A stretch of 63,728 bases of DNA, filler included, from Rhabdomonas costata (Eukaryota), in the NCBI GenBank assembly GCA_019059605.1. It is 32 parts of 32 records of this genome, joined end to end, with 100 filler letters (N's around TTAATTAATTAA, not from the genome) between each part and the next. Parts side by side here need not be neighbours in the genome. Positions count along the whole stretch, not along the records: positions 27,927 to 29,821 come from JAHMHO010007661.1; 31 more parts are not named here. The stretch is one strand, 5' to 3'. Below the pieces are notes generated by a model. The model was given only the letters and a program-made list of their open reading frames with translations. It was not told the DNA's origin and did not search any database. The translations under genes and the position numbers were made by a program. This document shows positions 27,801-33,590 of the stretch, piece after piece (the stretch's first letter is position 1; each line of letters starts with the position of its first letter).

Positions 27801-28298
27801 CCCCTTGTGCATAGGAACGCATAATTNNNNNNNNNNNNNNNNNNNNNNNNNNNNNNNNNNNNNNNNNNNNTTAATTAATTAANNNNNNNNNNNNNNNNNN
27901 NNNNNNNNNNNNNNNNNNNNNNNNNNTGTTGTGTTGTGCACTTGGTGCTGGTTTTAGGCATGCGTTGGAAGGTTTCTGTAAAGTACAGTTCGATGAAGTC
28001 ATGTGAGCTTCGAGCCCATGGTACGGAAGGTGCTGTGCGGTCGATCTTCGGTCTATCTCCTTGCGTGCCCCCCCCCCTTCCTTTATTTTTCACTCTCTTC
28101 CCCCAAGCCCTCTTTCTTGTAGTCCTTCTTTGCGGCCAACGCGAGAGAGTTCCCGAGGGCTTTCTTTGTAAGCTGGGGGTGCCTGCATCCCCTTTTTGCC
28201 CACACTGCCGTCCTGGGCCGTGACCTCACCACACCCTTGCTATACCACTCAAAGTAGAGCTTGATCGGGTAAGCAAGTGTGGGCGTGTGCCTGTGAGA

Positions 28299-29596
28299 AT
28301 GGGCGGCGGTGGCAGCCCGGCGCGGTGGTGGAAGGCCGTGGAGACCTCCCTGAGGACCCCCCGGGTGCAGTGTGGGCTGTGCCCGCGGAAGTGCCTCCTA
28401 AAGGACGGCGAGCGGGGGTTCTGCTACATCCGCCAGAATCAGGGCGGGGAGCTGGTCCTCACCAGCTACGGCCGTAGCAGTGGGTTCTTTGTGGACCCCA
28501 TCGAGAAGAAGCCGCTGTACCACTTCCTGCCGGGGTCTCAAACCCCCTCCCTCGCTGTTTCACCGCACCTTGCCGGTAGCTCAAATCTTCGCGAAAAGGA
28601 CGCTGGCCCATTAATTCAGGAGGAGGGGGTCATACCGGCAACCAGTGGTAACATAAATCCGACTTGAAACATTTGCTAAACTAACTTGAAAATGGTCAAA
28701 CCAAAACCTTCGAAATGACTTGATTTTGTGTAAGGGGGAGAAGGTAAACACTGTCAGTGCTCGCTAGATGAGATATTAAGGACAAGGCATTGGCTGAGTT
28801 ACTGGCGGATGAGTTGACAGGATTATTTCAGGGGCGAAGGCCAGCGACGCGGCGGCGGGAAGGTGTGAGCCGGGCCTTTAGATACCCCGCAGTGTGGTGG
28901 GGGAAGGTGAGCCGGGCCTTTAGATACCATTCTGAAATATTCTCCCAAGTTGCATTATTATTACCACTGATCAACTGGTAACCACTCGCTCCCCAAACTT
29001 CTGACCGCCCCCTCTCTGTAATAGCCGCAGGTGTTGAATTTTATATCATGGGTTTCACGACTGTACGATGCTGACACGACTGTGCGGAAATTTCGCAGAA
29101 GCAACATCCTCTCCTTTGGGACGGCGGGGTGCAACCTCGGCTGCCAGTTCTGTCAGAACTGGGACATCTCCAAGGCCCAGAGCATGGACAGGCTGGCCTA
29201 TGCCGTGGCCCCCGAGGAAATCGCGGAGGGTACTCTTCAAAGATTTGTCTCATTCCCTCACCCCCTCCTTAGGGCTGGTCCCCGTTGGCGCCACCACGCT
29301 GGTGAGCCATCAACGTTTTTCTGGTGTTTATCCGTCTCTCCTGCTCCAACCGATGCTAATCTGTGGAATGACAATGGGTGCTACCCGTTGTTTGGCTGTT
29401 GCTCATTTAGATGTGTGCACTTGGTAGGCACTGCACATGTGTGCCATTGCAGCGGCAGTTAACGAGGGGTGCAGCTCAGTGGCGTTCACTTACAACGACC
29501 CTGTTATCTTCGCGGAGTATGCCATTGACACGGCGAAGGAGTGCCGTAAGCGTGGTGTCCACACCGTTGCCGTCACTGCGGGATACATCGCAGAAG
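28299..29596 (+). CDS. AmmeMemoRadiSam system radical SAM enzyme (AmrS-like), 5' exons 28299-28534, 29099-29229, 29453-29596
   Basis: N-terminal CGLCPRKC...GFCYIRQN, DPIEKKPLYHFLPG|SNILSFGTAGCNLGCQFCQNWDISK (CxxxCxxC), SVAFTYNDPVIFAEYAIDTA and VAVTAGYI. Both complete introns are GT-AG and phase-compatible, and a third donor follows 29596. Confidence 0.92.
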
Positions 29597-30115
29597 GTTC
29601 GGTGGTTCTCGCCCCCCCCCCCTCCCCTTTGCGGCCGATCTGTTTGAAAGGAATTACATGGTTAGGTGTGGTCATCCCTCGGTCCGCGTTACATTGTTCT
29701 CGTGGTCTCAAAAGGAAATGAATGAAATCTCGTTCTCTCAAAGGACATGATTGAAAGATGCGTTCTAAATCAGACTTTGGAAGAACGAGATTTCATTCAT
29801 TTCCTTTTGAGACCACCACAANNNNNNNNNNNNNNNNNNNNNNNNNNNNNNNNNNNNNNNNNNNNTTAATTAATTAANNNNNNNNNNNNNNNNNNNNNNN
29901 NNNNNNNNNNNNNNNNNNNNNTGTTGTTTTTTAATGACCACATTTATTCTTAGATCTTTTTCCAAGAGAGCTGAAAAACAGAAGCTGAAGCAAATGGTGC
30001 GTACGTCACTGAGTGCGCCTTTGAAGGAGTGGTAAAGGAGGAACGAAGCCAGTGAATGAGCACAGAAGAGTTCCTTTCCACGGTCTGAAGCATCAACTGC
30101 GGCAGAACGCCATAC

Positions 30116-31916: not shown

Positions 31917-33590
31917 GGTGGTGGGTGACTGTGACCAGCGTCACAGAGGTCAGCTTCAGCACGCTGGGGTTCATCTTTGGCCTGGCAGGGTGCGCATCTG
32001 TGTGTGTTTGTGTGTAAGTGAAGTGGGGCAAAGGGGTGGACGCTGAACAACCAGAAATCAACTGTAAATTGTTTCAAACCAACCTACAACCGCACCTATA
32101 GATGTGCACTGCTCAGGTCCTGCCTTACCCTGTTTCTGTTACGAGGTCAATCAGATAAACTACCCATGTGAGTATCACAAGCCAAACAACCTTCACGCAC
32201 GATGAGGCAGCATTCCAGAGGTGTGCAGAAATTGAAAAAATTTCGTCGCGCCTGCACAAAACAGGACCTTTCTTAGATCCGGATGCGAATAAAAATGGCG
32301 ACGATGGCATTTATATATGGTCTGGGGAGACCTGTGTCAAATGGCTCCGAGCCTTTCCTTTGAGTTTCGGGGTGTAACTATCTAAACTTATATAAAGCTC
32401 CATGTCACTCACAAGCTCTTTTCATGGTCTTTCTTCCTTCATTTTCTCGACAGAGTGGATAGGTTTGTCGCAGTGCCTCGCACTTTTTTGGGTGCCACGG
32501 ACCAACATTTTTTTCCCCCCAAAATATGACGTTGCTCTCCTCGTACCCGCTTCTCTTCTCTGCGTTTCATTTGAGCTCCCTTACGTTCTGTTTTATAGGA
32601 CCATCTGCACTGCTGTGTACCAGGTTTGCCTGTGTTTTTTCTGGTGTCTGGGTTTCGTTTCAAGCGTGTCTCATTGATGTGCTCGTCGATTGAGCGTTAC
32701 TTGTTTTCGTTTGTGGGGCTTCACCGCGAGGAAACAATTCAATCCAGTCACGATAACTTGAGCCTTAGCCTAAAAGGAGCTGGAACCACACCACACATAA
32801 GTATCCCCGCGGGACTTCATCCTTGGGAGACTTCGGAGTGTGCATCAGCAATTCCTGTGGCTATCTGACAAATTCAGGTCGTTCGGCTTTCGTGGTGGAA
32901 AACAGGCGCGCCCTACATCCTGCACGTGTGCCTAAATGCGGTTTGTAGGACGAAGAGTTATTGATTTGCGCATCCCGACTCTCATCCCCTTTCCTATTCC
33001 CTTTTCCCACCTATCAATGCACACAGATTCTGAACAAAAACACCCAGCAGAGCTACGGGGTCAGCGCAATGCAGCTGCTTCAATACGAGAGCCCCTTCAC
33101 AGCGATGTTCACCGCTGTGTTTGTGGTGGTGGGCCGGGAGCTGGACGGGGTCCTCTCCAGCGACACCCTAACCATGCCCACCCTGGCGATGGTGCTGCTG
33201 AGCTGCGTCGCGGCCTTCGGTGTGATTCGATTGGATCTCCTCTCTCGCGCCCAATATGGTTTTTTCTTTGGGAGGGGTAAGTGGCCGTTATGAATCGCTG
33301 TGGCTATCATGAGTCCACTGCAATCTTACCTAAGTTCCAGTTTTAGGTGATTGTATGGAGGAAATAAAAACGCCAAACACCAAATTGGGAAAACTAGCGG
33401 ACTTGTTCAGCATTTGCTTCATACACTCGAACGTCTCTTTTTTTTAAAGGGGTCAACGTGACATGCTACCTTGTAATTGGCCGCACCTCACCTGTCACCT
33501 ACGGCGTTACGGGGCACCTCAAGACGATCGGGACCCTTTTGGTGGGCTTCACCTTGCTCCACCAGCCCTTCCTTCTGAAGAACCTCGCAG
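31917..33590 (+). CDS. Nucleotide-sugar transporter (UXT/URGT/SLC35E-like, TPT family); exons <31917-31989, 32599-32623, 33027-33219, 33450-33590
   Basis: VTSVTEVSFSTLGFIFGLAG|TICTAVYQ|ILNKNTQQSYGVSAMQLLQYESP...VLLSCVAAFG|VNVTCYLVIGRTSPVTYGVTGHLKT matches the UXT-family VIGKTSPVTYQVLGHLKT motif. Confidence 0.88.

What the first reader, a model, noticed from the sequence alone, without database searches (positions are those of the whole stretch)
28299..29596. Intron-containing AmmeMemoRadiSam radical SAM enzyme in a eukaryote
Seen: a well-conserved AmrS-like N-terminus (CxxCPxxC, DPIEKKPLYHFLPG, CNLGCQFCQNWDIS, AFTYNDP) split by phase-compatible GT-AG introns, so this is a host gene rather than bacterial contamination. 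No targeting peptide precedes the motif. Known: AmrS belongs to a three-protein prokaryotic system (radical SAM, AMMECR1-like AmrA, MEMO1-like AmrB) of unknown function, and model eukaryotes retain AMMECR1 and MEMO1 but not this enzyme. Inference: this flagellate may run the complete system in its cytosol, which would be a handle on what AMMECR1 and MEMO1 do.
Basis: partly seen in the sequence, partly recalled or inferred. Interest (0 to 1): 0.72.

Follow-up and report, generated by a model that had tools for sequence, protein, structure and literature searches.

The report
Spliced euglenid AmmeMemoRadiSam radical SAM gene
A euglenid protist has a spliced nuclear gene for an iron-sulfur enzyme known mostly from bacteria and archaea, plus two further copies and genes of both partner families, so it likely runs the whole three-protein system of unknown function whose two partners (MEMO1, AMMECR1) persist in humans.

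Summary
Observation confirmed. Three exons (28299-28534, 29099-29229, 29453-29596) splice through GT-AG introns. Public run contigs skip both introns, and the 170-aa product is identical to the start of a 369-aa EukProt protein labelled Rhabdomonas costata. That protein scores 572 bits on TIGR04337 (cut-off 220) and 66 on PFL-activase (cut-off 232). A spliced-leader-like 5' end and an ATG-free UTR leave no room for a targeting peptide. The genome also holds two more AmrS genes, a spliced Memo-family gene, an AMMECR1 gene and a second AmrA-like exon. The system's parts are all present; cooperation is inferred, not shown. The gene is not unique among eukaryotes: GenBank already labels a Paratrimastix AmrS, Blastocystis has one, and this scan noted another piece in this genome earlier. 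This copy nests among bacteria, and one origin for the eukaryotic copies tested is rejected (AU p=7e-5). However, the other euglenid copies share a loop motif with Paratrimastix and Blastocystis that is absent from 514 other sequences, and their monophyly is not rejected (p=0.37). Likely job: a radical step in modifying a macromolecule, probably an RNA base. New member of a known family; interest moderate.

The parts
27927..29821 (.). The whole contig holding the gene (G000:C7661); flanking window DNA comes from unrelated contigs
   Evidence: spacer pattern; locus place
28067..28107 (+). Pyrimidine tract (about 90% C/T) ending in AG at 28106-28107: likely trans-splice acceptor
   Evidence: the X3 contig starts at 28110 with a 12-nt loose 5' end matching a repeated leader-like motif followed by GT in G000 (92 hits against 5 for the control pattern; 4 of 6 loci share the longer upstream motif)
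28108..28298 (+). 5' UTR, 191 nt, no ATG
   Evidence: covered by X3 and X4 from 28110
28299..28534 (+). Coding exon 1 (aa 1-79): N-terminal Cys cluster C25, C28, C32, C42 and the DPIEKKPL motif
   Evidence: TIGR04337 99 bits, the only family hit; Cys invariant in 40 of 40 aligned
28535..29098 (+). Intron 1, 564 nt, GT..AG, phase 2
29099..29229 (+). Coding exon 2 (aa 79-123): radical SAM CxxxCxxC motif C90, C94, C97
29230..29452 (+). Intron 2, 223 nt, GT..AG, phase 1
29453..29596 (+). Coding exon 3 (aa 123-170): FTYNDP and VTAGY motifs
29597..29821 (+). Start of intron 3 (GT donor), cut by the contig end
   Evidence: X3 and X4 leave the contig at 29596 with letters that encode P0001 residues from 171 on

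Best explanation
This is a spliced nuclear gene for an AmmeMemoRadiSam radical SAM enzyme (AmrS), likely acquired from bacteria and likely cytosolic, which probably works with the host's Memo-family and AMMECR1-family proteins to modify a macromolecule, most likely an RNA base. Shown: splicing, family membership, intact cluster cysteines, no N-terminal extension, and partner-family genes in the genome. Predicted: a PFL-activase-like open partial barrel with two extra four-cysteine modules (C25/28/32/42 and C307/310/332/335), probably metal sites. Inferred from radical SAM chemistry (established knowledge): a [4Fe-4S] cluster cleaves SAM, and the 5'-deoxyadenosyl radical removes a hydrogen from the substrate. 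Inferred from gene context and literature prediction: the Memo metal site and the AMMECR1 RGCxG cysteine process or transfer the product. My odds: identity and host origin 0.97; bacterial origin of this copy 0.8; cytosolic or nuclear location 0.85; works with the partners 0.65; RNA or nucleotide base as substrate about 0.4.
For: Splice joints in X3 and X4 and the exact match to P0001. TIGR04337 572 bits against a cut-off of 220; PFLA 66 against 232. The profile match starts at residue 9, and the PARWW-type start lines up with bacterial N-termini. Model pLDDT 92.5; best fold match PFL-activase 3c8f, Z 24.0, rmsd 2.4, 226 aligned, next Z 18.1. P0001 lies in a 23-row, otherwise prokaryote-like clade at 99/94; its best non-self hits are 60-66% identical, and those that carry names are bacterial. 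Among the 80 best prokaryotic loci, AmrA and AmrB both lie within 5 kb in 50 of 80, at least one in 59 of 80, and no other neighbour recurs in more than 7 of 80. In G000: a Memo gene on L009 and L010, spliced and bridged by X3/X4, with His-, HSIE-, DxxH- and CG-type motifs by eye; intron-split AMMECR1 on L012 with RGCIG; a second AmrA-like exon on L013. Balaji and Aravind 2007 (PMC2034487, passages) report this neighbourhood and predict an RNA base modification.
Against: No substrate or activity is known for any AmrS, and no solved AmrS structure turned up. In a eukaryote, presence in one genome shows little, because MEMO and AMMECR1 are widespread without AmrS (PMC7694686 and PMC2034487, passages). 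21 of 80 bacterial loci (13 of 51 near-full-length ones) show neither partner within 5 kb. There are three AmrS genes but only one Memo gene was detected, so which copy pairs with which partner is open. The PFL-activase fold fits a protein substrate as well as RNA. No donor lineage is resolved. Splicing of L012 and L013 was not tested with reads.
Confidence: 0.55

Rival explanations
1. Same enzyme and partners, but the substrate is a protein residue or a small molecule or lipid (for example an isoprenoid), not RNA.
For: The nearest solved fold is a protein-acting activase (Z 24.0). [quoted passage not shown] An isoprenoid link for the Memo clade is recalled from Burroughs et al. 2019, which could not be read.
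Against: The RAGNYA fold of AMMECR1 is mainly nucleic-acid or nucleotide binding, and archaeal AMMECR1 neighbours RNA-acting genes (PMC2034487; PMC4075521). No substrate-peptide or lipid gene recurs widely beside the 80 loci; the top other neighbours, which look by eye like IspD and IspF, are in only 7 of 80.
Confidence: 0.25
2. The euglenid copy acts without Memo or AMMECR1, as a stand-alone low-oxygen enzyme, and the partner-family genes are ordinary eukaryotic stock.
For: 21 of 80 bacterial loci lack both partners nearby. The other named eukaryotic carriers, Paratrimastix and Blastocystis, are anaerobes (own knowledge). L012 looks like a normal eukaryotic AMMECR1.
Against: The genome also has a second, prokaryote-like AmrA exon (L013) and a divergent Memo gene that scores on prokaryotic models, which suggests partners were gained or kept along with AmrS. 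Triple fusions exist (P0030; 3 of 80 loci).
Confidence: 0.15
3. It is a glycyl-radical activase (PFL-activase type) serving fermentation.
For: Fold similarity; many JGI relatives are auto-named PFL activating enzyme.
Against: All glycyl-radical activase models score 20-66 bits, against cut-offs of 131-500. No PFL match in G000 (fragmented assembly, so not proof of absence). No glycyl-radical enzyme stood out among the recurring neighbours, judged by eye.
Confidence: 0.04
4. Bacterial contamination or a pseudogene.
For: 60-66% identity to prokaryotic proteins.
Against: Two spliced GT-AG introns, a leader-like 5' end and an intact 369-aa protein.
Confidence: 0.01

Closest known systems
AmmeMemoRadiSam system radical SAM enzyme AmrS (NCBIfam TIGR04337) with AmrA (TIGR04335, AMMECR1-like) and AmrB (TIGR04336, Memo-like)
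   Same: Full-length match at 572 bits, all conserved cysteines present, same length class, partner families in the same genome
   Different: Eukaryotic nuclear gene with spliceosomal-type introns and a likely spliced leader; partners are on other contigs, not in an operon; three AmrS genes from two distant clades
Paratrimastix pyriformis putative AmrS (KAJ4458131.1, P0299) and Blastocystis proteins KAK8804026.1 and XP_014529459.1 (P0541, P0542)
   Same: Eukaryotic TIGR04337 members (362, 338 and 335 bits)
   Different: They belong to the VTNG-type clade, are about 45% identical to P0001 (P0299) and carry a loop motif shared with euglenid genes B and C but not with the window's gene
Pyruvate formate-lyase activating enzyme (TIGR02493; PDB 3c8f)
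   Same: Closest solved fold (Z 24.0, rmsd 2.4, 226 aligned) and the CxxxCxxC cluster motif
   Different: 21% identity; 66 bits against a cut-off of 232; AmrS adds N- and C-terminal cysteine modules; no PFL found in G000

Membership tests
AmrS (TIGR04337) | Whole-protein score above the curated cut-off (220 bits) and best among NCBIfam models | tested here: met
   P0001 572.4 bits, profile 2-345 of 349; next family 66 bits
AmrS (TIGR04337) | Radical SAM CxxxCxxC plus family-invariant N- and C-terminal cysteines and DPIEKKP | tested here: met
   C25, C28, C32, C42, C90, C94, C97, C307, C310 and C332 invariant in 40 of 40; C335 in at least 90%
AmmeMemoRadiSam system | Memo-family protein encoded in the same genome | tested here: met
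   L009 and L010 over the cut-off for TIGR04336 and PF01875; spliced and bridged
AmmeMemoRadiSam system | AMMECR1-family protein with RGCxG encoded in the same genome | tested here: met
   L012 and L013 over the Pfam PF01871 cut-off; single exons stay under the TIGR04335 whole-protein cut-off
AmmeMemoRadiSam system | Gene linkage or fusion of the three parts | tested here: inconclusive
   P0001 is a stand-alone 369-aa protein; contigs of 1-3 kb cannot show linkage, and operons are not expected in a nucleus
AmmeMemoRadiSam system | The three proteins act in one pathway | not testable with these tools
   No biochemistry found for any member in the 10 paper searches
Pyruvate formate-lyase activating enzyme (TIGR02493) and other glycyl-radical activases | Score above the curated cut-off | tested here: not met
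   66 bits against 231.75; PFLE_PFLC 50.5 against 174.35
Pyruvate formate-lyase activating enzyme | Cognate PFL in the genome | tested here: inconclusive
   0 matches to TIGR01255 in a fragmented assembly

The most novel reading that the evidence does not exclude
AmrS is an old eukaryotic gene. One VTNG-type lineage marked by an [ILV]-E-D-[IML] loop motif survives in low-oxygen protists of three supergroups (euglenid genes B and C, Paratrimastix, Blastocystis) and was lost elsewhere. Human MEMO1 and AMMECR1 would then be orphans of an oxygen-sensitive three-enzyme modification pathway. This euglenid kept and duplicated the old copy and added a second, bacterial AmrS (the window's gene), perhaps with its own AmrA.
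Probability: 0.2. Interest if true: 0.78.

Novelty: new member of a known kind. Interest (0 to 1): 0.5.

Why it matters
MEMO1 and AMMECR1 are conserved human disease-linked proteins without an agreed biochemical function, and their prokaryotic relatives travel with this radical SAM enzyme. A eukaryote that keeps all three families as host genes, with three AmrS copies from two origins, shows the enzyme is under selection in a nucleus-bearing cell. It offers a eukaryote-with-AmrS against eukaryote-without comparison, for example of RNA modifications. The value is limited because archaea and bacteria with the full set are easier to manipulate, and because the euglenid Memo protein is distant from human MEMO1.

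Tried and rejected
Run search: no RNA holder listed on record. X3 and X4 are treated as transcript-like only because they skip introns. All four runs are one sample and one study, possibly the source of the assembly and of the EukProt record, so they are not independent replication. Complex prediction for a cognate bacterial AmrS with its AmrB-AmrA fusion (L089) gave no answer, score 0.00. Selenocysteine: 8 genomes showed one TGA in a second AmrS match; it is the terminal stop or lies upstream of the start, so rejected. One origin for P0001, P0002, P0401, P0402 and P0299: rejected by AU, p=7.2e-5 (Blastocystis was not in that set). The P0001 + P0002 pairing is unstable (support 0.0, broken, 92/70). 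Paratrimastix with euglenid B/C is also unstable (93/89, split in the quick tree, 84/91). The attempt to add archaeal sequences failed: L030 is titled an archaeon but its AmrS groups with betaproteobacteria, and the genomes are unnamed and were not added to trees. Rfam found no family for the leader-like loci (best E 0.29). The ESM Atlas gave only bacterial-dominated AmrS clusters. Gene B was not returned as a protein. Paper searches listed no paper on a eukaryotic AmrS; one search was swamped by unrelated 'AMRs'. The fungal 'AmmeMemoRadiSam' mention is protein B (PMC12235711, passage). Burroughs et al. 2019 was not held and may cover eukaryotic distribution. In the supplements of PMC9255765, 'AmmeMemo' and 'AMMECR1' occur 0 times; one radical SAM family transferred to opisthokonts (OG5_136401) could not be identified. 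Rows left out of trees: 37 of 388 and 62 of 600 for partial coverage; the careful trees used 52 and 42 selected rows.

Full report
Observation. The window is 32 short contigs joined by N-spacers. The finding lies on one 1,895-nt contig (27927-29821, G000:C7661), so it has no real neighbours here. The ATG is at 28299. Exons 28299-28534, 29099-29229 and 29453-29596 give a 170-aa open frame with GC3 0.84, separated by GT..AG introns of 564 and 223 nt, with a third donor at 29597. Each exon alone hits TIGR04337 best (99, 67 and 74 bits). Contigs of runs X3 and X4 cover only the exons and skip both introns exactly, while X1 and X2 cover the introns. The runs are one sample and none is on record as RNA. 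The spliced product equals residues 1-170 of P0001, a 369-aa EukProt protein that the tool labels Rhabdomonas costata, a euglenid (own knowledge).

5' end and location. The X3 contig begins at 28110 with 12 loose bases. They match, apart from the junction, a motif that occurs 92 times in G000 followed by GT, against 5 for the control pattern. Four of 6 fetched loci share a longer upstream motif. The window has a pyrimidine tract and AG at 28106-28107, then 191 nt without an ATG. I read this as spliced-leader trans-splicing (inference; Rfam gave no family). The profile match begins at residue 9 and bacterial N-termini align with the first residues, so there is no room for a targeting peptide. 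A cytosolic or nuclear location is inferred. Cytosolic Fe-S assembly components are described for Trypanosoma (PMC6006210, passages) but were not checked in G000.

Identity. P0001 scores 572 bits on TIGR04337 (cut-off 220); the best glycyl-radical activase model gives 66 (cut-off 232). Ten cysteines are invariant in 40 of 40 aligned proteins: four at the N-terminus, the CxxxCxxC triad and three of four at the C-terminus. The AlphaFold model (pLDDT 92.5) matches PFL-activase best (Z 24.0, rmsd 2.4, 226 aligned; next 18.1; residues 58-366 tested). No AmrS structure came up in the PDB searches. PFL was not found in G000 (incomplete assembly).

Rest of the genome. TIGR04337 finds 9 exon-sized matches. 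They resolve into three genes. Gene A is the window's gene plus L002. Gene C is P0401 (397 aa, 281 bits, same EukProt label; exons on L007, L022, L004 and L008) and is 37% identical to A. Gene B has exons on L110, L108, L024 and L005, 46-73% identical to C, with the cluster motif intact; that these six exons are one gene is my assumption. One Memo-family gene was found (L009 + L010). X3 splices out a 388-nt GT..AG intron, and X3/X4 bridge the two contigs. Its three pieces do not hit human MEMO1 structures, whereas a full bacterial AmrB domain does. An intron-split AMMECR1 lies on L012 and a second, prokaryote-like AmrA exon on L013; their splicing was not tested.

Prokaryotic context. In the 80 best loci from one of 64 parts of the genome collection, AmrA and AmrB both lie within 5 kb in 50 of 80, one of them in 9 more, and neither in 21. 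Among 51 near-full-length loci the counts are 32, 6 and 13. Three loci are triple fusions, and no other neighbour exceeds 7 of 80. Multiple copies are therefore not unique to the euglenid.

Other eukaryotes and origin. P0299 is GenBank's 'putative AmmeMemoRadiSam system radical SAM enzyme' of Paratrimastix pyriformis. Blastocystis proteins score 335-338 bits. Two unnamed Logan proteins look eukaryotic: P0402 (78% to C) and P0002 (55% to A, with an MLRR-type N-terminal extension); their hosts are unknown. In a 52-row careful tree, A sits in a 23-row VTAG-type clade (99/94) among prokaryote-like rows with no resolved donor, far from C. Holding A, C, P0002, P0402 and P0299 together is rejected (AU p=7.2e-5). 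For the VTNG-type copies the picture differs. Paratrimastix joins B/C at 93/89 and 84/91, but not in a quick tree. Holding Paratrimastix, Blastocystis, B, C and P0402 together is not rejected (p=0.37), which does not show a clade. An [ILV]-E-D-[IML] motif in the loop after the cluster triad occurs in 4 of 518 sequences, namely P0299, P0379, P0401 and P0402, and in gene B. I picked this motif after seeing the data. As a null, 0 of 3000 random triplets of equally distant VTNG-type sequences shared any such motif in that loop, in each of two pools. The region was also chosen after the fact, and no labelled archaeal or Asgard sequences were in the set. Shared ancestry, protist-to-protist transfer and convergence all remain open.

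Mechanism. Established radical SAM chemistry gives a 5'-deoxyadenosyl radical, and the open activase-like barrel suits a macromolecular substrate (inference). Balaji and Aravind 2007 (PMC2034487, passages) describe the AMMECR1, radical SAM and dioxygenase neighbourhood and predict an RNA base modification through the AMMECR1 cysteine. PMC4075521 (passages) repeats the RNA link. PMC7694686 (passages) describes MEMO1 as dioxygenase-like with an unresolved function. PMC7159879 (passages) cites Burroughs et al. 2019 for the system; that paper was not held and is used from recall only. I commit to a three-protein modification pathway, most likely on an RNA base (about 0.4), with protein or lipid substrates as the main rival.

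Novelty. The enzyme is a member of a known family, and a eukaryotic member is already labelled in GenBank. This scan also noted another AmrS piece in this genome (e1-9884367). Ten paper searches listed no study of eukaryotic AmrS, but the library lacks most subscription papers, including the key 2019 one and its supplement. Verdict: real; new member of a known kind; interest 0.5; boldest reading 0.2 likely, worth 0.78.

Noticed in passing
L004:469-471 (G000:C69690): The genome has TAG where the EukProt protein P0401 has the family-invariant Glu: an assembly error, a null allele or a splice boundary.
   Followed up: partly
L014-L019 and 86 further G000 places: A leader-like motif followed by GT occurs 92 times; probably spliced-leader RNA genes or scattered copies. 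No Rfam family matched.
   Followed up: partly
L013:478-660 (- strand): Second, prokaryote-like AmrA exon with GC3 0.87. Its 3' border shows no obvious GT donor, so it may be a GC-AG or non-conventional intron, and it may be part of a fusion.
   Followed up: partly
P0542 (Blastocystis XP_014529459.1): The gene model joins a ribosomal L1-like domain to AmrS. Other members of the same cluster are 348-366 aa without it, so it is probably a merged gene model.
   Followed up: partly
P0002 (unnamed Logan contig, 1,786 nt): AmrS with an Arg/Ser-rich MLRR-type N-terminal extension, possibly a mitochondrion-targeted copy in another protist.
   Followed up: partly
The two lowest-scoring ones have Ser in place of the second N-terminal Cys.
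   Followed up: partly
L030: The record title says Halobacteria archaeon, but its AmrS groups with betaproteobacterial sequences; possibly mislabelled or misbinned.
   Followed up: no
window about 28860-28930 and 29700-29810: A short direct repeat inside intron 1 and an inverted repeat inside intron 3, seen by eye.
   Followed up: no
window 32936-33280 (+): An open frame that looks by eye like an exon of a nucleotide-sugar or triose-phosphate transporter (recalled resemblance, untested); on an unrelated contig.
   Followed up: no
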